Shown piece by piece: positions 7,967 to 26,992 of a DNA stretch of 26,992 nucleotides (positions within the stretch are counted from its first letter, which is position 1; every line of letters starts with the position of its first letter). A program made the position numbers and the translations under genes. Under the pieces are notes generated by a model that did no database searches, had not been told where the DNA came from, and worked only from the letters and a program-made list of their open reading frames with translations. Source of the stretch: a virus (taxonomy: Duplodnaviria; Heunggongvirae; Uroviricota; Caudoviricetes); the IMG/VR virus record IMGVR_UViG_2778261667_000015; one strand, 5' to 3'.

Positions 7967-8313
7967 GATGGTGTTAACTCCAGTCATCGCTGGCACTACC
8001 ACTGCTGGTTCAGAGTTAAAAAAAACTATGATTTTTTTTCATGATGTTACCGTAGTATGTGAGTATCCATCGAATAGACACCAAGCAAAAAAGCTCCCGA
8101 AGGAGCCTTCATTTTCACTTTTTTAAATCCAACGACAGACGGCTGGCATTTAAGTATTGTGAAATATTATCAAATGTAATCATCATTGATTTACAAAAGA
8201 TACATTTTGCCCCGAAAGGATTCATGTCAGAAACATCAAAAGATGATGTTCTATACTGGGAACCATGACAACACGGGCATCTAAAGTGAATATGGTTTGT
8301 AATATTGTCTACC

Positions 8314-8526
8314 TCAAAGCGCCACTACATGAACAGCGGCAGGACCTTTAGGTCCGTTCTCAATACCAAATTCAACTTCCTGATTCTCAGTTAATGTTTT
8401 GAAATCGTTGCTCTGAATTGCTGAGAAATGGACAAACACATCTTTGCTGCCATCTTTCGGCGTGATGAAACCAAAACCTTTTTCAGGGTTAAACCATTTC
8501 ACTAAACCAGTCATTTTGTTAGACAT
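8314..8526 (-). CDS. cspI: Cold-shock protein, CspA family
   Basis: 70 aa [70 protein letters not shown] with RNP1/RNP2 motifs; position next to Rz as in Qin. Confidence 0.85.
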
Positions 8527-8888
8527 AATTATTACCTTTTGAAGAAATTAGCCCTTGGGCAGAATGGTCCGAAAAAAAATATCAGAGAGAAAAACCAACA
8601 AGGAAATCTCAAGAGGTACAAATAATAAAATTATAACAATGACTGCTTCAGATAAATTTGTAACAAACCAGAACACCATTAACGCATGATTAACCACCCA
8701 TAGCAAGGATTACTTTTGTAAAGAAAAACACAGCAATGAAAGAATAGCTTTATTTATTAATAAAACGTGTCATTCTGATTAAGACCTTTTATCTTACCCT
8801 TAAGATTTCAGGAATTTTGACTCATGGAAGAGTCCTTTTTATTTAAATTTTACATTCAGCGATGTAAATGTTCCGATTTAATATTACC

Positions 8889-10917: not shown

Positions 10918-11197
10918 AGATTGTGGTGCTTTTTGTGGGAGTCATCCACTTACGCACTTTGTTTTGCGATGCCAGCAGTTAGCTTCTGCTGTGAAACTAT
11001 TCATGCAGCAAACCTGCACTTCACCACAATGGTTAGCATACTTTTCCTGATTAAGATTTTGCCAAATATGCTGGCCATTGTTTCATGTATTGGACCTCCT
11101 TACTTTTTATTAAAGAGATCCAATATTCACTACTCTGTCCGTATCTCTACTCAGGCATCAGCCTTCTTCGTTATCGTATACAGACGAGCGATGAATT

Positions 11198-11413
11198 TTA
11201 ATCAGTAATGATGACATTTACTGCTGCAGGACCTTTAGCACCACTCTCTATAGAGAAGGTAACCTTTTGACCTTCAAATAAGGTTCGATAATTATCATTC
11301 TGAATCGCAGAAAAATGCACAAACACATCTTTACTACCATCAACAGGAGAAATAAAGCCGAAACCTTTATCAGCGTTAAACCATTTTACTAAACCAGTCA
11401 TTTTATTTGACAT
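11198..11413 (-). CDS. cspB: Cold-shock protein, CspA family
   Basis: 71 aa [71 protein letters not shown]. Confidence 0.85.
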
Positions 11414-11713
11414 TCTACATTCCTTAACTTGAGCCTTTCGGCATAAATGGTTTGTATAACAGAAACGACTTCGTACTTAATTGGAGAGACTCAAAGAAGG
11501 AATAAGTGAATAACACCTGAAATGAGAACTGCTTTAGTAAACTACTTCGTATATCGTCTGTTCTTCAAACCGACGCAATCATTAACGCATAGTTGAACAT
11601 ATGAAGCAATGTTTATTTTAGACATCCAGCCATCTTCAACCCCATCAAAAAACTATAGCTTTCTTCAGGAACGTGTGTATAGTGCGCCAAGTTATCAGTA
11701 TTAAGGAATTTTT

Positions 11714-14807: not shown

Positions 14808-15857
14808 TTACGCCAGTACGCCTATTGCCAGCGCACGATCGATAAAACGAAATATCAGCTCCAGCTGGGAGCCATACTTCTCTTCAAATGCCACGGTATT
14901 CGCATGCAGCTCGTCGTGATGCTTTCTGCACAAAGGCAACACAAAGAGATCATGTGCTTTGGTTCCCATTCCGCCCTGCCCGTGACCAATCAGATGATGC
15001 GGATCGTCGGCTGGCATACCGCAGCAAGCACACGGCTGTGTCTTAACCCAGCGTGTGTACTTTTCATTAACCCAACGGTGACGTTTAGGCAGCTTCATGA
15101 AAGATTCCGGAGACTCTGGATCAACGGTGATGCTTACCACCGTCTTTTCCTGTGATGGGTTTTGTTGCTGGTGGGCGTGAGGCAACGGTGCAAGATTTTT
15201 TGTGCGCTGTTTCAATATGCTGGTGGCGGTCTGCTCTCCCGGTACGATGTCGCTTTCGCGGTACACCGAGCAGTTTTTTTCCGCTGGTAATCCCAGCGAG
15301 CGACGTAATACCGCTTCCGGTAGCGCGTCCGCCACCTGATTGCGGACCGCCCACCAGGATAATTCAGCCAGAGATAATTCACGCTCCTGCGTACCGCTTA
15401 TTGCGTGACCGATGACGTCAATCATCCATGCTGACAGGTTTTGATGAGCAAGTTGCTCGAGTGATTCGGATGTCTGGTCACGCAGCTGGTTGTCGCAGTG
15501 CCAGCACAACACCATTGCGCCGGTACCATAACGGTGAATAACGGTTTCGCTGTGATGATAATCGCCGTGTGGCCACTGGCAGGATTTAATATGGCGCAAC
15601 AGCCAGTCAGACAATGCACCAGCACCACCAGCAGCACGAATTACCCGTGCGTTACTGAAAAACGGCAGCAATGTTTTGTCTTCCACCAGCGGCTGGCGAA
15701 CGGCAGGAACGACCCCGGACGGCAGATTACGCATGCTTTTCGGTTCCGGCTCCACCAGTACCCGGGTATTGTGGAATACCGGCATGGATTCACGGCCCGG
15801 CTTAACGACCACCAGCCCGAGTTCCGGTACCAGAACAGGTCGAAGTAATACCCGCAC
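14808..15857 (-). CDS. ydfU: YdfU-like (DUF968) protein
   Basis: 349-aa ORF; GTG start at 15857 preceded by GGAGG at 4 nt and coupled to the upstream ORF stop; Cys/His-rich C-terminus (CACCGMPADDPHH...CRKHHDELH). Confidence 0.7.
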   Translation of the reverse strand: MRVLLRPVLVPELGLVVVKPGRESMPVFHNTRVLVEPEPKSMRNLPSGVVPAVRQPLVEDKTLLPFFSNARVIRAAGGAGALSDWLLRHIKSCQWPHGDYHHSETVIHRYGTGAMVLCWHCDNQLRDQTSESLEQLAHQNLSAWMIDVIGHAISGTQERELSLAELSWWAVRNQVADALPEAVLRRSLGLPAEKNCSVYRESDIVPGEQTATSILKQRTKNLAPLPHAHQQQNPSQEKTVVSITVDPESPESFMKLPKRHRWVNEKYTRWVKTQPCACCGMPADDPHHLIGHGQGGMGTKAHDLFVLPLCRKHHDELHANTVAFEEKYGSQLELIFRFIDRALAIGVLA

Positions 15858-16671: not shown

Positions 16672-16827
16672 TTACTCCTCAGGTTCGTAAGCTGTGAAGA
16701 CAGCGACCTCCGTCTGGCCGGTTCGGATTCGTACCTCGCAGAGGTCTTTCCTCGTTACCAGTGCCGTCACTATGACGGTTAAACAAATGACGATCAGGGC
16801 GATTAACATCGCCTTTTGCTGCTTCAT
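16672..16827 (-). CDS. hokD: Hok-family type I toxin (51 aa); the overlapping mok frame extends to 16884
   Basis: MKQQKAMLIALIVICLTVIVTALVTRKDLCEVRIRTGQTEVAVFTAYEPEE is a canonical Hok; the 70-aa ORF 16672..16884 is the mok-like upstream frame. Confidence 0.85.
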   Translation of the reverse strand: MKQQKAMLIALIVICLTVIVTALVTRKDLCEVRIRTGQTEVAVFTAYEPEE

Positions 16828-16859
16828 AGCCTGCTTCTCCTTGCCTTTCGGCACGTAAG

Positions 16860-16935
16860 AGGCTAACCTACATGTGTCTAGCATGAAATTGGCCTCAGAT
16901 TAATGTTAAGCGTCTTGCAGGACGCGTAATGTTAA
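16860..16935 (+). ncRNA. sok: Putative Sok antisense RNA region
   Basis: Placed antisense to the mok start/leader by analogy with plasmid R1 hok/sok; boundaries not resolved by eye. Confidence 0.25.
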
Positions 16936-17324
16936 CTGGGGCTTTTCTCTATCTGCCGTTGGTGTTCATGCCCGAGGCAGATAGCCTCAAGCACCCGCAG
17001 CCATTCTACTTAACTACCGTTACCTCGCCAATATGAAATCAATCAGTAAGGTGATCCATAAGAACAATAACAAGACAATAAATTGCCATTACAGCCACAA
17101 TAGCCAGCGTGCATTTGAGAACCAGCACATAAATCTCCTGCTCTTGACGTATACAGGCACTGATAAATATGTGTCTTCGTGCTCGTTACTTCAATACGTA
17201 AGCGTCAGTTGCGCGTAATCAAATCAGACAACCGACTTTAAACCAGGGACAAACAGCAGGTAAAATAATCAAACGTTATTTTAAGCCATATCATGGCTTC
17301 AAGATTTCCTCTAATTTCAACAAG

Positions 17325-17442: not shown

Positions 17443-18108
17443 TCATTCCTGCCCTTCTTTACCGTAGTGGAGTTGACCAATTTTGATTAGAGGGCGTCCC
17501 TGAGATTTGCGGTGTAGATTGGTATCGCGCAGTGAATACACGCAGCCACAATATTCCTGCTGATAGAATTGTTCGCGCTTGCTGATTTCAATCATGCGGG
17601 AAGAGCCGCCCTGCTTTCGCCAGTTATAATCCCAGTACACCATGCCCGGATAATACGCGACGGCTCGCCGTCCACAGTCGTTAACCTGCTGCATATTTTT
17701 CCAGCGTGAAATGCCCAGTGAGCTACTGATCACACTGAAACCATTTTCAGCGGCATACAGCGCAGTCCGCTCAAAACGCATGTCAAAACACATGGTACAA
17801 CGGATCCCTCGTTCAGGCTCCCATTCCATTCCTTTGGCTCGCTCAAACCAGTTGTCTGTGTCGTAATCAGCATCAATAAATGGCACGCCGTGTTGTTTAG
17901 CAAAGCGAATATTCTCATCCTTACGAATTAAATACTCTTTCTGAGGATGAATGTTCGGGTTGTAGAAAAAGATGGTGTAGTCGATTCCCGAGGCCTGAAG
18001 CGCCTCCATCACTTCACCGGAACATGGAGCACAGCAAGAGTGCAGTAATAGTTTTTTTGCCCCGTTTGGGAGCTCCAATTTGGGGCGTTTGAAATCAGCA
18101 ACAGTCAT
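17443..18108 (-). CDS. queH: QueH-like (DUF208) epoxyqueuosine reductase
   Basis: ORF 17443..18222 (GTG start); from ATG 18108: [30 protein letters not shown]...NPNIHP...[38 protein letters not shown]...QEYCGCVYS, matching the conserved blocks I recall for QueH. Confidence 0.6.
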
Positions 18109-18161
18109 AAATGTGTTTATGAGGTTCATGAAAATAGCAAAAAGTGTAGCATCAGAACGGG

Positions 18162-18464
18162 CTATCGGAAACAGATGTCTAAATCTGGTAATGTCTGCTT
18201 TTGATGCAAAGCAGACAACCACGGCAGCGCACGAAAATCAGCGATAATGTCGGGATTAATAATCGGGTGACGTCCATCACATAGCGAATGTTCCTCTTTC
18301 CTGATATCGCTAAATATCGACCATTCGTCATTCTTATCGAACCAGAGCATGCGACTGCCACAGCACATGTCGAGAATGGTAGCCGATGTACTCACAGCAT
18401 CACCTCCCGATAATTCCCCTGATAAAACGTCAGAACACGCTGCATAACTTCGCTCTTCCGGCAC
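18162..18464 (-). pseudogene. Possible N-terminal fragment of a SAM-dependent methyltransferase
   Basis: 100-aa ORF (GTG start) with a motif-I-like ILDMCCGSRMLWF, ending far short of a full methyltransferase; overlaps the neighbouring ORFs at both ends. Confidence 0.3.
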
Positions 18465-20618: not shown

Positions 20619-21026
20619 ATGGATACAAAAAATTTAACCATCGGCGAACGCATTAGGTATCGTCGGAAAAACCTCAAACACACCCAAAGGTCTCTTGCTA
20701 AAGCCCTGAAAATCTCCCATGTGTCTGTATCACAATGGGAACGGGATGATAGTGAACCTACAGGGAAGAACCTTTTTGCCCTCAGCAAAGTATTGCAATG
20801 CTCACCAACATGGATTCTATTTGGCGATGAAGACAAGCAACCAACACCACCTGTTGAGAAGCCGGTTGCCTTAGCCCCCAAAGAACTAGAGCTCCTTGAG
20901 CTGTTTAATGCACTGCCAGAATCAGAACAGGATACCCAGCTCGCCGAAATGCGAGCTCGAGTAAAAAATTTCAATAAACTCTTTGAAGAATTACTAAAAG
21001 CCCGTCAGCGGACAAATAAAAGATAA
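20619..21026 (+). CDS. dicA: Repressor DicA (HTH, c2-like)
   Basis: 135 aa MDTKNLTIGERIRYRRKNLKHTQRSLAKALKISHVSVSQWERDDSEPTGKNLFALSKVLQCSPTWILFGDE... Confidence 0.85.
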   Translation: MDTKNLTIGERIRYRRKNLKHTQRSLAKALKISHVSVSQWERDDSEPTGKNLFALSKVLQCSPTWILFGDEDKQPTPPVEKPVALAPKELELLELFNALPESEQDTQLAEMRARVKNFNKLFEELLKARQRTNKR

Positions 21027-21192: not shown

Positions 21193-21348
21193 ATGGATAC
21201 TATCGATCTTGGCAACAGCGAATCTCTGGTATGTGGCGTGTTCCCCAACCAGGACGGCACGTTCACCGCGATGACGTATACCAAAAGCAAAACGTTTAAA
21301 ACCGAAAATGATGCCCGTCGCTGGCTGGAAAGAAACTCAGGTGAGTGA
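21193..21348 (+). CDS. ydfA: YdfA-like small protein (51 aa)
   Basis: ATG at 21193 with GAGG upstream; MDTIDLGNSESLVCGVFPNQDGTFTAMTYTKSKTFKTENDARRWLERNSGE. Confidence 0.7.
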   Translation: MDTIDLGNSESLVCGVFPNQDGTFTAMTYTKSKTFKTENDARRWLERNSGE

Positions 21349-21349
21349 T

Positions 21350-21925
21350 ATGGATTTCGACACAATCATGGAAAAGGCTTACGAAGAATACTTCGAAGGC
21401 CTTGCCGAAGGCGAAGAAGCTCTCAGCTTCAGTGAGTTTAAACAGGCACTCAGAATAAGAATGTGCTCTCACAATGACGCGGAGCACAAATATGAGAAGC
21501 AAAATCAGACCGCAGAAAATTTTGTTCTGGAACCCGGAGAAACGCTTTTCAAAATTCCCGTTACGTGCCCCATTTGCGGTTTTACATCAGAAGAACTTGA
21601 CGACTCCTGTAACAATCAGGAAACAACCAAGTATGTCGAAGATGATACCGAGTGCGCACGAAGAACGATTATATCCACGAGTCCAAACTCCAGGACCAAT
21701 AAATCTCACCTTGAGAGGGTGATTAATCCACTCCCCCAAACCAATAAAAAAGATGCCGGAGGACAAAAAACCCAATGGAACAACGGGATATCTGTCAAAA
21801 AAAGACGTTCCATTAAAGACAAACAACGCAGCGCCAACAACTGTAAGCGCTTTATACCAGTAATCAATTTTCATGTTCTTAAGCGGATTTATTGGTGGTT
21901 GCGACATTGCTTAATGAATCCTTAA
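21350..21925 (+). CDS. YdfB/YdfC-like protein encoded as one continuous 191-aa ORF
   Basis: ATG at 21350, 2 nt after the ydfA stop; begins MDFDTIMEKAYEEYFEGLAEGEE... and continues without a stop to 21925; contains a CPICGF motif. Confidence 0.5.
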   Translation: MDFDTIMEKAYEEYFEGLAEGEEALSFSEFKQALRIRMCSHNDAEHKYEKQNQTAENFVLEPGETLFKIPVTCPICGFTSEELDDSCNNQETTKYVEDDTECARRTIISTSPNSRTNKSHLERVINPLPQTNKKDAGGQKTQWNNGISVKKRRSIKDKQRSANNCKRFIPVINFHVLKRIYWWLRHCLMNP

Positions 21926-22184: not shown

Positions 22185-22242
22185 TTTCTGGTGACGTTTG
22201 GCGGTATCAGTTTTACTCCGTGACTGCTCTGCCGCCGTTTTT
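22185..22242 (+). ncRNA. dicF: DicF small RNA
   Basis: tttctggtgacgtttggcggtatcagttttactccgtgactgctctgccgccgttttt matches the DicF sequence as I recall it, including the 3' terminator hairpin and U-tail. Confidence 0.85.
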
Positions 22243-22411
22243 AAAGTGAATTTTGTGATGCGGTGAATGCGGCTAAGCGCACGCGGAACAGTTAAAACCA
22301 AAAACAGTGTTATGGGTGGATTCTCTGTATCCGACGTTAATTGTTAACTGGTTAACGTCACCTGGAGGCACCAGGCACTGCATCACAAAATTCATTGTTG
22401 AGGACGCGATA

Positions 22412-22600
22412 ATGAAAACGTTATTACCAAACGTTAATACGTCTGAAGGTTGTTTTGAAATTGGTGTCACTATCAGTAACCCTGTATTTACTGAAGATGG
22501 CATTAACAAGAGAAAACAAGAACGGGAGCTATTAAATAAAATATGCATTGTTTCAATGCTGGCTCGTTTACGTCTGATGCCAAAAGGATGTGCACAATGA
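22412..22600 (+). CDS. dicB: Cell-division inhibitor DicB
   Basis: 62 aa MKTLLPNVNTSEGCFEIGVTISNPVFTEDGINKRKQERELLNKICIVSMLARLRLMPKGCAQ; GAGGA upstream. Confidence 0.85.
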   Translation: MKTLLPNVNTSEGCFEIGVTISNPVFTEDGINKRKQERELLNKICIVSMLARLRLMPKGCAQ

Positions 22601-22788
22601 ATTCAGCATTTGCGCTTGTTCTGACAGTTTTTCTTGTTTCCGGAGTGCCAGTTGATATTGCAGTCAGTGTTCACAGGACAATGCAGGAGTGTATGACTGC
22701 AGCAACCGAACAGAAAATTCCCGGTAACTGTTACCCGGTCGATAAAGTTATTCACCAGGATAATATCGAAATCCCGGTAGGTCTTTAA
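22597..22788 (+). CDS. ydfD: YdfD-like small membrane (lysis-associated) protein
   Basis: 63 aa MNSAFALVLTVFLVSGVPVDIAVSVHRTMQECMTAATEQKIPGNCYPVDKVIHQDNIEIPVGL; start overlaps the dicB stop (ATGA). Confidence 0.75.
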   Translation: MNSAFALVLTVFLVSGVPVDIAVSVHRTMQECMTAATEQKIPGNCYPVDKVIHQDNIEIPVGL

Positions 22789-22881: not shown

Positions 22882-25353
22882 ATGAGTAAAGTCTTTATTT
22901 GCGCCGCTATTCCTGACGAACTGGCAACAAGGGAAGAAGGCGCTGTGGCTGTAGCCACAGCCATTGAAGCTGGCGACGAACGCCGTGCTCGAGCAAAATT
23001 TCACTGGCAATTCCTGGAACATTATCCGGCTGCTCAGGACTGCGCTTATAAATTTATTGTCTGCGAGGATAAACCTGGCATACCCCGCCCTGCCCTCGAT
23101 TCATGGGATGCTGAATATATGCAGGAAAACCGCTGGGATGAGGAGTCTGCTTCTTTTGTCCCGGTTGAGACTGAATCCGATCCGATGAACGTCACTTTTG
23201 ACAAGCTGGCCCCTGAAGTACAGAACGCTGTCATGGTTAAGTTCGACACATGTGAAAACATCACCGTTGATATGGTTATTAGCGCACAGGAATTGTTGCA
23301 GGAAGACATGGCAACATTCGACGGACATATCGTTGAAGCGTTGATGAAAATGCCAGAAGTTAACGCCATGTATCCGGAGCTTAAGTTGCACGCCATTGGG
23401 TGGGTTAAGCATAAATGTATTCCTGGTGCTAAATGGCCCGAAATTCAGGCAGAGATGCGCATCTGGAAAAAACGTCGCGAAGGTGAACGCAAGGAAACCG
23501 GAAAATACACGTCTGTTGTTGATCTCGCCCGCGCCAGAGCCAATCAACAGTACACTGAAAATTCAACAGGAAAAATCAGCCCGGTCATTGCTGCCATTCA
23601 TCGCGAATACAAGCAGACATGGAAAACACTGGATGACGAACTGGCCTACGCTCTCTGGCCTGGTGATGTGGATGCCGGAAACATTGACGGCAGCATCCAT
23701 CGCTGGGCAAAAAAAGAAGTTATCGACAACGACCGCGAAGACTGGAAGCGTATCTCGGCATCAATGCGCAAACAGCCTGATGCCCTTCGCTACGACCGCC
23801 AGACTATTTTTGGCCTTGTCCGTGAGCGTCCGATCGACATTCACAAAGATCCCGTAGCACTGAACAAATATATCTGCGAATACCTGACGACAAAGGGCGT
23901 GTTTGAGAATGAAGAAACAGACCTGAGCACTGTTGATGTTCTCCAGTCATCAGAAACACAAACTGATGCAGTGGAAACTGAGGTATCTGATATCCCAAAA
24001 AATGAAACCGCGCCGGAAGCTGAACCATCTGTAGAGCGTGAGGGGCCGTTCTATTTCCTCTTCGCAGATAAGGACGGAGAAAAATACGGTCGCGCAAACA
24101 AACTTTCTGGTCTGGATAAGGCACTGGCTGCTGGCGCCACTGAAATCACAAAAGAAGAATATTTTGCCCGAAAAAATGGCACATACACGGGCTTACCGCA
24201 AAATGTAGATACCGCTGAAGATTCAGAACAACCAGAGCCGATAAAAGTTACCGCTGACGAAGTAAACAAAATTATGCAGGCAGCCAATATCAGCCAGCCT
24301 GACGCCGATAAGTTGCTTGCTGCATCACGTGGTGAATTTGTTGAAGGGATTAGTGACCCGAATGATCCGAAATGGGTTAAGGGGATCCAGACCCGCGATT
24401 CTGTGAACCAGAACCAGCATGAATCGGAACGGAACTACCAAAAAGCGGAACAAAACAGTCCAAATGCGTTACAAAACGAGCCAGAAACGAAACAGCCTGA
24501 ACCAGTGGCGCAACAGGAAGTGGAAAAAGTCTGCACCGCCTGCGGTCAGACCGGCGGCGGCAACTGCCCTGATTGTGGCGCGGTGATGGGCGACGCAACA
24601 TACCAAGAAACATTCGATGAAGAGTATCAGGTTGAAGTTCAGGAAGATGATCCGGAGGAAATGGAAGGCGCTGAACATCCACACAAGGAGAACACTGGCG
24701 GCAATCAGCATCACAATAGCGATAATGAAACTGGCGAGACGGCAGATCACCCAATTAAGGTGAACGGTCATCACGAAATCACATCCACCAGCAGGACGTG
24801 TGACCATCTAATGATCGACCTTGAAACCATGGGAAAAAATCCTGATGCCCCGATCATCTCAATAGGTGCAATATTTTTCGATCCGCAAACCGGAGATATG
24901 GGACCGGAATTTAGTAAGACTATCGATCTGGAAACTGCTGGCGGAGTCATTGATCGGGACACCATTAAATGGTGGCTTAAGCAATCACGCGAAGCGCAAT
25001 CTGCCATTATGACCGATGAAATCCCGTTAGATGATGCACTGTTACAATTGCGGGAATTTATCGACGAAAACTCCGGTGAATTTTTTGTTCAGGTCTGGGG
25101 AAATGGAGCCAACTTCGACAACACGATTTTGCGCCGTTCATACGAACGGCAGGGGATCCCCTGCCCGTGGCGTTACTACAACGATCGCGATGTACGCACA
25201 ATCGTTGAGCTGGGGAAAGCCATAGACTTCGATGCCAGAACGGCTATTCCATTCGAAGGTGAGCGCCATAATGCACTTGATGACGCCCGTTACCAGGCAA
25301 AATACGTTTCAGTTATCTGGCAAAAACTGATCCCGAGTCAGGCTGATTCTTAA
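22882..25353 (+). CDS. ydfE: YdfE-like large protein: N-terminal domain of unknown function, acidic linkers, central zinc ribbon, C-terminal DnaQ-like DEDDh 3'-5' exonuclease domain
   Basis: 823-aa ORF; C-terminus carries Exo I (MIDLETMG), Exo II (VWGNGANFDNTIL) and Exo III (HNALDDARY) motifs; CTACGQTGGGNCPDCG zinc ribbon near residue 550. Confidence 0.7.
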   Translation: MSKVFICAAIPDELATREEGAVAVATAIEAGDERRARAKFHWQFLEHYPAAQDCAYKFIVCEDKPGIPRPALDSWDAEYMQENRWDEESASFVPVETESDPMNVTFDKLAPEVQNAVMVKFDTCENITVDMVISAQELLQEDMATFDGHIVEALMKMPEVNAMYPELKLHAIGWVKHKCIPGAKWPEIQAEMRIWKKRREGERKETGKYTSVVDLARARANQQYTENSTGKISPVIAAIHREYKQTWKTLDDELAYALWPGDVDAGNIDGSIHRWAKKEVIDNDREDWKRISASMRKQPDALRYDRQTIFGLVRERPIDIHKDPVALNKYICEYLTTKGVFENEETDLSTVDVLQSSETQTDAVETEVSDIPKNETAPEAEPSVEREGPFYFLFADKDGEKYGRANKLSGLDKALAAGATEITKEEYFARKNGTYTGLPQNVDTAEDSEQPEPIKVTADEVNKIMQAANISQPDADKLLAASRGEFVEGISDPNDPKWVKGIQTRDSVNQNQHESERNYQKAEQNSPNALQNEPETKQPEPVAQQEVEKVCTACGQTGGGNCPDCGAVMGDATYQETFDEEYQVEVQEDDPEEMEGAEHPHKENTGGNQHHNSDNETGETADHPIKVNGHHEITSTSRTCDHLMIDLETMGKNPDAPIISIGAIFFDPQTGDMGPEFSKTIDLETAGGVIDRDTIKWWLKQSREAQSAIMTDEIPLDDALLQLREFIDENSGEFFVQVWGNGANFDNTILRRSYERQGIPCPWRYYNDRDVRTIVELGKAIDFDARTAIPFEGERHNALDDARYQAKYVSVIWQKLIPSQADS

Positions 25354-25425: not shown

Positions 25426-25677
25426 ATGAGCGAAGTAATCATGATTGTCTCTCCCGGCAAATGGGTATCCGAAGAGCAGTTAATTGCGCTGAAAGGAATA
25501 AAAAAAGGTACGTTAAAAAAGGCTCGGGAAAAATCGTTTATGGAAGGAAGGGAATATAAGCATGTCGCTCATGACGGTATGCCATGGGATAACAGTCCAT
25601 GCTTTTACAACCTGGAAGAAATTGATCGCTGGATTGAGCGCCAGGCATCAGCGAGACCAAGACGTCATCTTACTTGA
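25426..25677 (+). CDS. xis: Excisionase-like protein
   Basis: 83-aa ORF immediately upstream of the integrase; ...WVSEEQLIALKGIKKGTLKKAREKSFMEGREYKHV... resembles Rac/Qin-type excisionases. Confidence 0.6.
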   Translation: MSEVIMIVSPGKWVSEEQLIALKGIKKGTLKKAREKSFMEGREYKHVAHDGMPWDNSPCFYNLEEIDRWIERQASARPRRHLT

Positions 25678-25711
25678 CTAAAAGCCACACTAACTAATGA
25701 GAGAAGTTGAA

Positions 25712-26992
25712 ATGAAATATCCGACAGGCGTGGAAAACCATGGAGGGAAATTACGTATCTGGTTTGTTTATAAAGGCGTAAGAGTCAGGGAAAATCTGGG
25801 GGTTCCTGACACAGCAAAAAACAGGCGCGTTGCAGGTGAACTACGCGCCTCTGTTTGTTACGCAATAAAAACTGGTGTTTTCGACTATGCAAAACAGTTT
25901 CCCTCCTCACGCAATCTGGAAAAATTTGGTGAGGCCCGACAAGATTTAACCATAAAAGAACTGGCTGAAAAATTTCTGGCACTGAAAGAAACTGAAGTCG
26001 CCAAAACATCACTCAACACATACCGTGCCGTCATCAAAAATATCCTGAGCATAATCGGTGAAAAAAATCTTGCCTCATCGATTAATAAAGAAAAATTACT
26101 GGAGGTTCGTAAAGAGCTACTGACTGGATACCAGATCCCCAAAAGTAACTATATTGTTACACAACCAGGGAGATCGGCTGTAACTGTAAATAATTACATG
26201 ACAAATCTTAACGCCGTGTTCCAGTTTGGTGTTGATAACGGTTACCTGGCAGATAATCCGTTTAAGGGGATCTCGCCATTAAAGGAATCAAGAACCATTC
26301 CGGATCCTCTTTCGCGGGAGGAATTTATCCGTCTTATCGATGCGTGCAGAAATCAGCAAGCAAAAAATTTATGGTGTGTTTCTGTTTATACTGGCGTTCG
26401 CCCTGGTGAGCTGTGTGCACTTGGATGGGAGGACATAGATCTGAAAAATGGAACAATGATGATCAGGAGAAATTTAGCAAAAGACCGTTTCACGGTACCA
26501 AAAACACAGGCGGGAACCAATCGGGTCATTCATCTTATTAAGCCAGCAATCGACGCTCTCCGGAGTCAGATGACATTAACGAGACTGAGCAAAGAGCATA
26601 TCATTGATGTTCACCTCAGAGAGTATGGCAGAACAGAAAAACAAAAATGCACCTTTGTTTTTCAACCTGAAGTGTCAGCGAGAGTAAAAAATTATGGTGA
26701 CCATTTTACCGTTGACTCAATAAGGCAGATGTGGGACGCAGCGATAAAACGTGCCGGACTCCGCCATCGAAAATCATATCAGTCGAGACATACTTATGCC
26801 TGCTGGTCGCTGACAGCTGGTGCTAACCCGGCATTTATAGCAAACCAGATGGGCCATGCAGATGCGCAAATGGTATTTCAGGTATACGGAAAATGGATGT
26901 CTGAAAACAATAATGCACAGGTAGCTTTGTTAAATACACAGTTAAGTGAGTTTGCCCCAACCATGCCCCATAACGAAGCAATGAAAAATTAA
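25712..26992 (+). CDS. int: Tyrosine integrase (lambda Int family)
   Basis: ORF 25697..26992; ATG at 25712 has GAGAAG upstream. C-terminal catalytic signature R...HxxR...Y (YTGVRPGEL; HTYACWSL; HADAQMVFQVY). Stop is the last codon of the window, so attL should lie just beyond. Confidence 0.9.
   Translation: MKYPTGVENHGGKLRIWFVYKGVRVRENLGVPDTAKNRRVAGELRASVCYAIKTGVFDYAKQFPSSRNLEKFGEARQDLTIKELAEKFLALKETEVAKTSLNTYRAVIKNILSIIGEKNLASSINKEKLLEVRKELLTGYQIPKSNYIVTQPGRSAVTVNNYMTNLNAVFQFGVDNGYLADNPFKGISPLKESRTIPDPLSREEFIRLIDACRNQQAKNLWCVSVYTGVRPGELCALGWEDIDLKNGTMMIRRNLAKDRFTVPKTQAGTNRVIHLIKPAIDALRSQMTLTRLSKEHIIDVHLREYGRTEKQKCTFVFQPEVSARVKNYGDHFTVDSIRQMWDAAIKRAGLRHRKSYQSRHTYACWSLTAGANPAFIANQMGHADAQMVFQVYGKWMSENNNAQVALLNTQLSEFAPTMPHNEAMKN

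What the first reader, a model, noticed from the sequence alone, without database searches (positions are those of the whole stretch)
22882..25353. Intact 823-aa YdfE-like protein with DEDDh exonuclease domain and zinc ribbon, without an adjacent annealase
In the position where lambdoid phages carry recombination genes (between xis and the kil-like dicB) there is one large ORF. Its C-terminus has unmistakable DnaQ-like Exo I/II/III motifs (a 3'-5' exonuclease, unlike the 5'-3' exonucleases of Red-exo/RecE). The N-terminal ~550 residues are unassigned, with long acidic low-complexity linkers and a CxxC...CxxC ribbon. No RecT/Bet-like gene is visible. As far as I recall, K-12 Qin ydfE is disrupted, so an intact copy allows functional study. 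It could be a recombination, anti-defence or nucleic-acid-processing factor.
Basis: partly seen in the sequence, partly recalled or inferred. Interest (0 to 1): 0.5.

Follow-up and report, generated by a model that had tools for sequence, protein, structure and literature searches.

The report
Common prophage RecE-scaffold 3'-5' exonuclease
The gene is real and intact, but it is a very common, already catalogued prophage protein: a RecE-like scaffold whose usual nuclease is replaced by a DnaQ-type 3'-5' exonuclease, and its biochemical role is still untested.

Summary
The 823-aa ORF at 22882-25353 (+) is confirmed. It has an intact DEDDh (Rv2179c-like/DnaQ-like) exonuclease domain, a CxxC...CxxC ribbon and acidic disordered linkers, and no annealase nearby. 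It is not rare. A match occurs in 4800 of 5426 complete E. coli genomes, and the protein is 99-100% identical to proteins of the phages Tritos and HannyBb (mEp460 carries the same 823-aa gene in the same gene order). Tritos is the prototype of a published "nuclease-only, Chi-rich" lambdoid recombination-module class.

The N-terminal part is not unassigned. Residues 1-256 equal K-12 YdfE (Pfam YdfE_N/YdfE_C). Residues 262-627 are homologous to the non-catalytic part of RecE, and the similarity ends exactly where RecE's own nuclease begins.

Across relatives, this scaffold carries one of three C-terminal modules: a RecE-type PD-(D/E)XK nuclease, a DEDDh nuclease, or a Rad52-fold annealing domain. 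Free-standing copies of the DEDDh module sit inside Erf-SSB-Abc2 recombination modules of P22-like phages.

Best reading: a DNA-end-processing nuclease of a minimal phage recombination module that relies on host RecBCD/RecA. This is inferred, not shown. Already known as an entity; moderate-to-low interest.

The parts
22882..25353 (+). Complete gene for the 823-aa YdfE-like / RecE-scaffold DEDDh exonuclease (stop codon included)
   Evidence: ORF listing. 100% DNA identity to the 'exonuclease' WP_054486278.1 in NZ_CP148382.1. PHROG 2082 matches over the full length.
22882..23496 (+). aa 1-205: two folded N-terminal domains, an alpha/beta unit (aa 1-100) and a helical unit (aa 105-205). This is the YdfE_N + YdfE_C region that survives in the K-12 ydfE pseudogene.
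   Evidence: AF2 pLDDT about 90. Precomputed Pfam PF27430/PF27432 on the 94%-identical cluster representative, with names. 256/256 identity to K-12 YdfE. dN/dS 0.05-0.15. No informative fold match.
23614..23901 (+). aa 245-340: helical domain where the homology to RecE begins (RecE aa 278 onward)
   Evidence: AF2 pLDDT about 85. BLASTP against RecE. NCBIfam PRK09709 model positions 271-600. dN/dS about 0.10.
24043..24177 (+). aa 388-432: small, highly conserved beta/alpha unit (GPFY...GRANK...EI) shared with the annealase-bearing relatives
   Evidence: Invariant columns G388 P389 F390 Y391 G403 R404 A405 N406 K407 in a 41-sequence alignment. pLDDT about 85. dN/dS 0.02-0.03.
24295..24762 (+). 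aa 472-627: segment nearly identical to RecE 455-592, mostly low-complexity and acidic. It holds the CxxC...CxxC ribbon (aa 551-565, nt 24532-24576).
   Evidence: BLASTP alignment. Cysteine positions. The ribbon is present in only a subset of family members. dN/dS 0.6-1.0, so this segment is weakly constrained.
24785..24792 (-). Chi octamer (GCTGGTGG on the - strand) exactly at the scaffold/DEDDh junction (codons for S-T-S, aa 634-636)
   Evidence: Present at the same place in 84 of 85 DEDDh-type loci and absent from K-12 recE. dS drops to about 0 downstream of it, even against a copy with an unrelated N-terminus.
24805..25320 (+). aa 642-813: DEDDh (DnaQ-like, Pfam Rv2179c-like) 3'-5' exonuclease domain. 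Catalytic residues D646, E648, D746, H796, D801.
   Evidence: Pfam E 2.4e-67. The only solved relative found by sequence is T4 DexA, 8KEL, E 6e-8. Catalytic residues invariant.
22186..22788 (+). Upstream genes of the same leftward early (dicBF-type) operon: DicF sRNA (22186-22237), dicB (22412-22600), ydfD (22597-22788)
   Evidence: Rfam DicF 72.5 bits. Pfam DicB and DUF1482. PGAP annotation of the identical prophage.
25426..26992 (+). Downstream excisionase (25426-25677) and tyrosine integrase (25712-26992). Nothing is encoded between the exonuclease gene and xis.
   Evidence: Pfam DUF1233 excisionase and Phage_integrase. PGAP annotation. The 72-nt gap was read directly.

Best explanation
The gene encodes the only dedicated component of a minimal, nuclease-only recombination (Rec) module in a Chi-rich, Qin/Tritos-type lambdoid phage.

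The protein is built on the same non-catalytic scaffold as RecE (exonuclease VIII). Where RecE carries a PD-(D/E)XK 5'-3' nuclease, this protein carries a DnaQ-like DEDDh domain. That domain should remove nucleotides from 3' ends in a Mg2+-dependent reaction.

The gene is expressed from the repressor-controlled leftward early operon (dicA-type repressor, DicF, dicB, ydfD, this gene, xis, int) after induction or infection. I propose that it processes DNA ends or 3' tails during recombination-dependent phage replication and genome exchange. Because the phage has no annealase and no RecBCD inhibitor, it would work with host RecBCD-Chi/RecA, or with annealases supplied by co-resident prophages.

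Shown here: the domain architecture, the intact catalytic residues, the module exchange on a shared scaffold, purifying selection on the folded scaffold domains, the genomic slot, the lack of a partner, and Chi enrichment.

Inferred: DNA rather than RNA as substrate, a role in recombination, and dependence on host functions.
For: 1. An intact DEDDh domain with all five catalytic residues, invariant down to 56% identity.

2. The nearest solved relative by sequence is the DNA exonuclease T4 DexA.

3. aa 262-627 are homologous to RecE 278-592, and the similarity stops where RecE's nuclease (DUF3799, aa 615-850) starts.

4. Among the 50%-identity representatives, the scaffold occurs with a YdfE-type or a RecE-type N-terminus. 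It is combined with a DEDDh module, a PD-(D/E)XK module or a third module.

6. Free-standing DEDDh proteins 56-59% identical to this domain lie inside Erf-SSB-DEDDh-Abc2 modules of epsilon34 and Bas106.

7. The gene occupies the Rec-module slot just before xis-int. Rac has recE-recT at the corresponding place.

8. The folded scaffold domains have dN/dS 0.02-0.15.

9. The window holds 8 Chi sites against 0.73 expected, 6 of them on the late-gene strand. No anti-RecBCD gene was found. This matches the published Tritos class (nuclease only, no SAP, SSB or anti-RecBCD, Chi-rich). The Tritos protein itself is 816/823 identical (PMC12315714).
Against: - No enzymatic or genetic data exist for this protein.
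- As PMC12315714 notes, 3'-5' exonucleases usually destroy the 3' tails that RecA or annealases use, and so tend to inhibit recombination.
- None of the 87 DEDDh-type loci has an annealase in its flanks, so a classical exonuclease-annealase mechanism is excluded in cis.
- The Pfam family is named after an RNA exonuclease, and sequence alone cannot settle substrate.
- The scaffold's own function is unknown even for RecE (PMC11611040), and it gave no informative fold match.
- The DEDDh segment has too few substitutions to measure selection.
- The 87 loci are closely related, so they are not independent observations.
Confidence: 0.5

Rival explanations
1. It is a defence or superinfection-exclusion nuclease of the 'HREX' kind. 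Like the small E. coli DexA homologue EcD, the DEDDh domain would spare unmodified host DNA and degrade hydroxymethylcytosine-modified DNA of invading T-even phages, protecting the lysogen.
For: T4 DexA is the only solved relative detectable by sequence. PMC12153337 reports that a small E. coli DexA homologue protects against T4. DicB, from the same operon, has been linked to phage resistance (title of 10.1101/708461). PADLOC gives a generic DEDDh hit, E 1.7e-5.
Against: The two DexA residues tied to 5hmC recognition are not conserved here: W152 aligns with Y766 and D169 with A788. The free-standing P22-like copies keep W and D. Identity in that region is only 27%, so the alignment there is uncertain. 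The gene lies in a repressor-controlled early lytic operon, not in a lysogen-expressed position. No specific defence-system model matches. This idea does not explain fusion to a RecE scaffold, or exchange with a PD-(D/E)XK nuclease and an annealase.
Confidence: 0.1
2. It is a host-takeover or scavenging nuclease. Like DexA in T4, it would degrade host or broken DNA to nucleotides during lytic growth, with no specific role in recombination.
For: Homology to DexA, one of whose described roles is host-DNA scavenging. Expression from the early operon alongside the host-toxic genes dicB and ydfD.
Against: Temperate lambdoid phages are not known to degrade the host chromosome (general knowledge). 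The scaffold's other cargoes are recombination proteins. In P22-like phages the free-standing domain sits tightly packed between SSB and Abc2.
Confidence: 0.1
3. It is an RNA exonuclease, as the Pfam family name (Rv2179c-like 3'-5' exoribonuclease) suggests. It would trim or degrade RNAs, for example operon transcripts such as the DicF precursor, host RNAs, or nucleotide-based immune signals.
For: Best Pfam family is PF16473, and many database copies are named '3'-5' exoribonuclease'. DicF is processed from the same transcript (that it is processed is established knowledge).
Against: Rv2179c itself is not found by sequence search of solved structures even at E up to 10, whereas the DNA enzyme DexA is. 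The recombination-module context and the exchange with DNA nucleases and an annealase point to DNA.
Confidence: 0.08
4. It is a decaying or selfish remnant: a Rec module that lost its annealase and persists only through hitch-hiking with xis-int in highly mobile prophages.
For: No partner gene. PMC12315714 calls one- or two-gene modules 'somewhat suspect'. K-12 and two other E. coli genomes carry truncated copies. The DEDDh-xis-int block is nearly identical at synonymous sites between otherwise different copies, so it spreads by recent recombination.
Against: A length of about 823 aa is maintained in thousands of genomes and in viable phages. Folded scaffold domains show dN/dS 0.02-0.15. Catalytic residues are invariant.
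Confidence: 0.07

Closest known systems
RecE (exodeoxyribonuclease VIII) of the Rac prophage, partner of RecT
   Same: Same genomic slot: the early-left operon upstream of xis-int. Homologous non-catalytic region: window aa 262-627 align with RecE 278-592, nearly identical from about aa 472, including the CxxC...CxxC ribbon and the acidic tail. Similar size, 823 against 866 aa.
   Different: The C-terminal nuclease is DEDDh (3'-5') instead of PD-(D/E)XK/DUF3799 (5'-3'). The N-terminal 260 aa are YdfE_N/YdfE_C, not Pfam Exonuc_VIII PF06630. No recT follows the gene. The NCBIfam RecE equivalog scores 283 bits against a cut-off of 1269.
'Tritos-type' nuclease-only Rec module of Chi-rich lambdoid phages (PMC12315714, Table 1)
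   Same: The Tritos protein is 816/823 identical, and the gene order DicF-dicB-ydfD-gene-xis-int is the same. No SAP, SSB or anti-RecBCD gene. Chi-rich.
   Different: Nothing substantive: the window is an instance of this class. The paper's main text does not say that the nuclease is a RecE scaffold carrying a DnaQ-like domain, and its supplement was not available.
Free-standing DnaQ-like nucleases in P22-like Rec modules (epsilon34 gp34, Bas106_0031)
   Same: 56-59% identity over the whole DEDDh domain, with all catalytic residues shared. Located in the early-left recombination region.
   Different: They are about 182 aa with no scaffold. They are flanked by Erf, SSB and Abc2, whereas the window protein has no such neighbours. 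They keep the W/D pair that aligns with DexA W152/D169; the window has Y/A.
T4 DexA (PDB 8KEL) and its E. coli homologue EcD ('HREX', PMC12153337)
   Same: DEDDh fold and catalytic residues. DexA is the only solved structure found by sequence, E 6e-8, about 27% identity.
   Different: DexA and EcD are small single-domain proteins. The 5hmC-recognition residues are not conserved in the window protein. DexA's extra loops are absent.
'RecE-2' / ZF40 gp07-type proteins (annotated exodeoxyribonuclease VIII in Klebsiella, Salmonella, Enterobacter and Pantoea prophages)
   Same: They share the YdfE_N/YdfE_C domains, the middle domain and the conserved aa 388-432 unit, at 31-49% identity. Same slot before xis-int.
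   Different: Their C-terminal about 290 aa is a Rad52-fold annealing domain, not a nuclease. A Sipho_Gp157 / Mu-Gam-like gene always follows, in 9 of 9 loci.

Membership tests
DEDDh / DnaQ-like 3'-5' exonucleases (Pfam PF16473, Rv2179c-like) | Profile match above the curated cut-off across the whole domain | tested here: met
   226.5 bits against a cut-off of 27; model positions 2-177 of 177.
DEDDh / DnaQ-like 3'-5' exonucleases (Pfam PF16473, Rv2179c-like) | Exo I (DxE), Exo II (D) and Exo III (H-x4-D) catalytic residues | tested here: met
   D646, E648, D746, H796, D801. Invariant in 9 sequences at 56-98% identity.
DEDDh / DnaQ-like 3'-5' exonucleases (Pfam PF16473, Rv2179c-like) | Metal-dependent 3'-5' exonuclease activity, and its substrate (DNA or RNA) | not testable with these tools
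   Needs enzyme assays. Sequence proximity to DexA rather than Rv2179c is only a hint.
RecE / exodeoxyribonuclease VIII (NCBIfam NF007259 equivalog) | Whole-protein score above the equivalog cut-off | tested here: not met
   283 bits against a cut-off of 1269. Only model positions 271-600 of 877 match.
RecE / exodeoxyribonuclease VIII (NCBIfam NF007259 equivalog) | C-terminal PD-(D/E)XK 5'-3' nuclease domain (Pfam DUF3799) | tested here: not met
   Present in K-12 RecE at aa 615-850. Absent from the window protein.
RecE / exodeoxyribonuclease VIII (NCBIfam NF007259 equivalog) | N-terminal Exonuc_VIII domain (PF06630) | tested here: not met
   No Pfam hit and no local phmmer hit of RecE 1-270. 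Relatives such as P0128 and phage 813R8 do combine this domain with DEDDh.
RecE / exodeoxyribonuclease VIII (NCBIfam NF007259 equivalog) | Adjacent cognate annealase (recT) | tested here: not met
   None in the window or in any of 87 DEDDh-type loci.
RecE / exodeoxyribonuclease VIII (NCBIfam NF007259 equivalog) | Shared non-catalytic middle region with the zinc ribbon | tested here: met
   BLASTP E 9e-62; aa 262-627 against RecE 278-592.
YdfE family (Pfam PF27430 YdfE_N, PF27432 YdfE_C) | Both domains at the N-terminus | tested here: met
   Precomputed hits on the 94%-identical representative P0001 and all listed homologues; names. 256/256 identity to K-12 YdfE. Neither model is in the local Pfam copy, so the match was not re-scored here.
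Tritos-type nuclease-only Rec module (PMC12315714) | A nuclease gene in the early-left operon with no SAP, SSB or anti-RecBCD gene | tested here: met
   The references used were RecT, Bet, Erf, the Rad52-like module, lambda Exo, Gam, SSB, Abc2 and Gp157. Families outside this set (for example Sak4) were covered only through the PGAP/Pfam annotation.
Tritos-type nuclease-only Rec module (PMC12315714) | Abundant Chi sites, mostly in one orientation | tested here: met
   8 against 0.73 expected, and 0 of 100 shuffles reach 8. Six are on the late-gene strand. Only 27 kb of the phage lies in the window.
Tritos-type nuclease-only Rec module (PMC12315714) | Sequence identity to the prototype | tested here: met
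   816/823 identical, same gene order.
HREX (DexA/EcD-type 5hmC-selective exonuclease, PMC12153337) | Residues equivalent to DexA W152 and D169 (5hmC recognition) | tested here: not met
   Y766 and A788 in the window. Based on alignment at 27% identity, so of moderate reliability.
HREX (DexA/EcD-type 5hmC-selective exonuclease, PMC12153337) | Protection against T4 and selective cleavage of 5hmC DNA | not testable with these tools
   Needs infection and nuclease assays.

The most novel reading that the evidence does not exclude
The RecE/YdfE N-terminal scaffold is a general docking platform of enterobacterial lambdoid phages. Interchangeable recombination effectors are plugged onto it: a 5'-3' PD-(D/E)XK nuclease, a 3'-5' DEDDh nuclease, or a Rad52-type annealase. 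On this reading the window protein is a 'reverse-polarity RecE'. It would make recombinogenic single-stranded DNA, or trim 3' flaps, without a cognate annealase. That would mean resection polarity does not matter for this pathway and that the scaffold, not the nuclease, sets the pathway's specificity, for example by tethering to a host replication or repair factor. A corollary is that the published 'RecE-2' proteins, said to lack a nuclease domain and to have unknown roles, are in fact scaffold-annealase fusions.
Probability: 0.25. Interest if true: 0.6.

Novelty: already known. Interest (0 to 1): 0.3.

Why it matters
As an entity it is ordinary. The same protein is annotated in thousands of E. 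coli genomes, has PHROG and Pfam families, and belongs to a Rec-module class described in 2025.

What is still open is the function, and it is testable. Why does a very widespread group of lambdoid prophages, including many in Shiga-toxin-producing strains, keep a large RecE-like protein whose nuclease has the 'wrong' polarity and no annealase? An answer would bear on three questions:
- how Chi-rich phages exploit host RecBCD/RecA
- what the long-unexplained N-terminal two-thirds of RecE does (it enhances linear-linear recombineering)
- how prophage mosaics form. A conserved Chi sits exactly at the module junction inside the gene.

The side observation that some proteins annotated 'exodeoxyribonuclease VIII' in Klebsiella, Salmonella and Enterobacter prophages carry a Rad52-fold annealase instead of a nuclease would correct a common misannotation.

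Tried and rejected
- The full-length homology search was saturated by near-identical E. coli sequences (7999 of 8000 candidates) and gave no diversity. I replaced it with a search of 50%-identity representatives using aa 1-640.
- The viral-contig scan returned 80 loci, all 94-100% identical. It was useful only to show that the gene order is constant.
- The species-representative genome scan found only 11 loci, because the peptide patterns were restrictive. It is therefore a lower bound on the taxonomic range.
- PADLOC gave only a generic CRISPR-associated DEDDh profile, so I rejected it as evidence for a defence system.
- The zinc ribbon is not a conserved functional core: it is absent from most family members.
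- I considered the 205-aa ORF at 21308-21925 as a hidden annealase and rejected it. It has no Pfam hit, matches a PHROG of unknown function, and gave no tblastn hit to annealase references.
- The supplement of PMC12315714, which would show how the Tritos nuclease was typed, is not held.
- The EcD sequence (HAK9828821.1) could not be retrieved for a direct comparison.
Full report
**1. Observation.**

The ORF is exactly as reported: 22882..25353 on the + strand, ATG start, 823 aa. A GAGG lies 10 nt upstream of the start codon.

The local gene order is:
- a dicA-like repressor (20619-21026) and ydfA
- a 205-aa ORF of unknown function
- DicF sRNA (22186-22237, Rfam 72.5 bits)
- dicB and ydfD
- this gene
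- xis (25426-25677) and int (25712-26992)

K-12 ydfE is a pseudogene. It is identical over 256 aa and then interrupted by IS2E.

**2. The exonuclease domain.**

Pfam PF16473 (Rv2179c-like, DEDDh) matches aa 642-813 with E 2.4e-67. The catalytic residues D646/E648, D746 and H796/D801 are present. They are invariant in nine sequences down to 56% identity.

The only solved structure detectable by sequence is T4 DexA (8KEL), a 3'-5' DNA exonuclease, with E 6e-8 for the domain alone. The RNA enzyme that gives the Pfam family its name is not found even at E up to 10.

**3. The 'unassigned' N-terminal part can be assigned.**

BLASTP against K-12 RecE aligns aa 262-627 with RecE 278-592 (E 9e-62). From about aa 472 the two are nearly identical, including the CxxC...CxxC ribbon and the acidic tail. 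The similarity ends at the start of RecE's PD-(D/E)XK nuclease, which is Pfam DUF3799 at aa 615-850.

Residues 1 to about 256 are covered by two recent Pfam families, PF27430 YdfE_N and PF27432 YdfE_C.

An AlphaFold2 model of aa 1-470, built from a 41-sequence alignment (mean pLDDT 74), shows four folded units:
- aa 1-100
- aa 105-205
- aa 245-340
- aa 388-432

They are separated by disordered acidic linkers. The protein's net charge is -65.

**4. How common it is.**

DNA matches occur in 4800 of 5426 complete E. coli genomes, with a median of 2 places and up to 10 per genome. In 3537 genomes a match covers at least 80% of the gene. The homology search was saturated by proteins of about 823 aa at 88-94% identity.

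The same gene, in the same dicB-ydfD-gene-xis-int order, is found in isolated phages:
- HannyBb, 99.9% identical
- mEp460
- Tritos, 816/823 identical

An intact copy is the norm. The K-12 truncation is the exception.

**5. A modular family.**

A search of 1.84 billion 50%-identity representatives with aa 1-640 found only 247 clusters. A species-level genome scan found only Enterobacterales.

Local profile searches with reference modules show a combinatorial mosaic:
- the N-terminus is either YdfE-type or RecE-type (PF06630)
- the middle is shared
- the C-terminus is DEDDh, RecE-type PD-(D/E)XK (confirmed by Pfam for P0131 and P0198), or a third module of about 290 aa with no Pfam family

All combinations occur. 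P0128 and phage 813R8 combine a RecE N-terminus with DEDDh. P0131 combines a YdfE N-terminus with PD-(D/E)XK.

The evidence on the third module is:
- It is one conserved family.
- It weakly hits Pfam Rad52_Rad22 in 6 of 7 members.
- It has a free-standing homologue annotated 'RAD52-like annealing protein' in a Pseudomonas phage.

So the scaffold carries a 5'-3' nuclease, a 3'-5' nuclease or an annealase. All three are recombination effectors.

**6. Context statistics.**

Six-frame searches used RecT, Bet, Erf, the Rad52-like module, lambda Exo, Gam, SSB, Abc2 and Gp157 as queries. They found none of these in the flanks of 86 YdfE-type DEDDh loci, nor of the one RecE_N-type locus. All 9 annealase-type loci have a Gp157/Mu-Gam-like gene immediately downstream. 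The DEDDh loci are closely related, so this shows constancy and not independent recurrence.

By contrast, free-standing DEDDh proteins 56-59% identical to this domain lie inside Erf-SSB-DEDDh-Abc2 modules of epsilon34 and Bas106.

**7. Selection and mosaicism.**

Pairwise Nei-Gojobori estimates against copies about 6-11% divergent give the following:

| Region | dN/dS |
|---|---|
| aa 1-205 | 0.05-0.15 |
| aa 245-340 | about 0.10 |
| aa 388-435 | 0.02-0.03 |
| acidic linkers and ribbon region | 0.6-1.0 |

The DEDDh segment has almost no substitutions. Its dS is about 0 even against the 813R8 copy, whose N-terminus is unrelated. This indicates recent exchange of a DEDDh-xis-int block.

A Chi octamer lies exactly at the junction (24785-24792, - strand). 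It is conserved in 84 of 85 such loci and absent from K-12 recE.

**8. Literature.**

PMC12315714 (Genome Research 2025) surveyed 325 lambdoid phages and reports:
- DnaQ-like 3'-5' nucleases are legitimate Rec-module members, citing epsilon34.
- Such nucleases 'curiously, usually inhibit homologous recombination'.
- Table 1 lists a class 'Tritos': nuclease only, with no SAP, SSB or anti-RecBCD, in 4 phages, all Chi-rich.

The window fits that class. It has 8 Chi sites against 0.73 expected, and 6 of them lie on the late-gene strand. That this is the active orientation is my inference from the paper's definition.

PMC12153337 (NAR 2025) describes DexA and a small E. coli homologue, EcD, as 5hmC-selective nucleases ('HREX'). 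In the window protein, the residues aligned with DexA W152 and D169 are Y766 and A788. The P22-like free-standing copies keep W and D.

**9. Interpretation.**

The best-supported reading is a DNA-end-processing 3'-5' exonuclease on a RecE-type scaffold. It would be the sole dedicated component of a minimal Rec module in a phage that otherwise relies on host RecBCD-Chi/RecA, or on annealases supplied in trans. I put my confidence at about 0.5.

What is shown here is the architecture, the intact catalytic residues, the module exchange, purifying selection on the folded scaffold domains, the genomic slot, the lack of a partner gene and the Chi enrichment. The DNA substrate, the role in recombination and the dependence on host functions are inferences.

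The rivals are an HREX-like defence nuclease, a scavenging nuclease, an RNA exonuclease and a decaying remnant. Each has specific evidence against it, but none is excluded.

**10. Verdict.**

The entity is already known and very common, and its class is published. Interest is moderate to low (0.3).

The most novel reading that my evidence does not exclude is that the scaffold is a general docking platform for interchangeable recombination effectors. On that reading this protein is a reverse-polarity RecE, and the 'RecE-2' proteins are scaffold-annealase fusions.

Noticed in passing
window 24785-24792 (- strand): A Chi octamer sits exactly at the boundary between the RecE-like scaffold and the DEDDh domain. 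It is conserved in 84 of 85 DEDDh-type loci and absent from K-12 recE. Synonymous divergence falls to about 0 downstream of it, even between copies with unrelated N-termini, which suggests a recombination breakpoint inside the gene.
   Followed up: partly
window 15167-15816: Five of the window's eight Chi octamers cluster within 650 bp (two on the + strand, three on the -), inside the ydfU/DUF968 gene (14808-15857, - strand). The GC content there is locally high, 0.547.
   Followed up: no
L009 6001-8837; L012 2214-4891; L098-L103: Proteins annotated 'exodeoxyribonuclease VIII' in Klebsiella, Enterobacter, Pantoea, Erwinia and Pectobacterium (ZF40 gp07) prophages share the YdfE scaffold but end in a Rad52-fold annealing domain instead of a nuclease. 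A Sipho_Gp157 / Mu-Gam-like gene always follows. They probably correspond to the 'RecE-2' proteins of unknown role in PMC12315714.
   Followed up: yes
window 21308-21925 (+): A 205-aa ORF with a CxxC motif lies where K-12 has ydfB and ydfC. Its first 48 aa match the ydfB-like PHROG 2061. The whole ORF matches PHROG 35040 (unknown function) and it has no Pfam hit. PGAP annotates only a ydfB pseudogene there, whereas phage HannyBb annotates the full ORF.
   Followed up: partly
protein P0201 (703 aa): A representative protein joins a RecE N-terminus and part of the zinc-ribbon region in frame to a RecT annealase sequence (PHROG 148, E 8e-72). This looks like a deletion that removed the RecE nuclease and fused recE to recT.
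   Followed up: no
window 17443-18222 (- strand): The prophage carries a gene that PGAP calls epoxyqueuosine reductase QueH, beside a truncated methyltransferase gene and upstream of the replication genes. That is an unusual cargo and might relate to nucleic-acid modification.
   Followed up: no
L006 4001-4549 and L007 4001-4549 versus window 24787-25350: The free-standing DEDDh nucleases of the P22-like phages epsilon34 and Bas106 (and P0244) keep the Trp/Asp pair that aligns with DexA W152/D169, reported to recognise 5hmC. The window protein and its closest relatives have Tyr or Cys at the first position and Ala, Val or Thr at the second.
   Followed up: partly
window 8287-8672, 11151-11574, 16822-16996 (all - strand): Rfam finds two cspA-type thermoregulator leaders (belonging to the prophage cold-shock genes) and a sok antitoxin RNA next to hokD (genes).
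   Followed up: no
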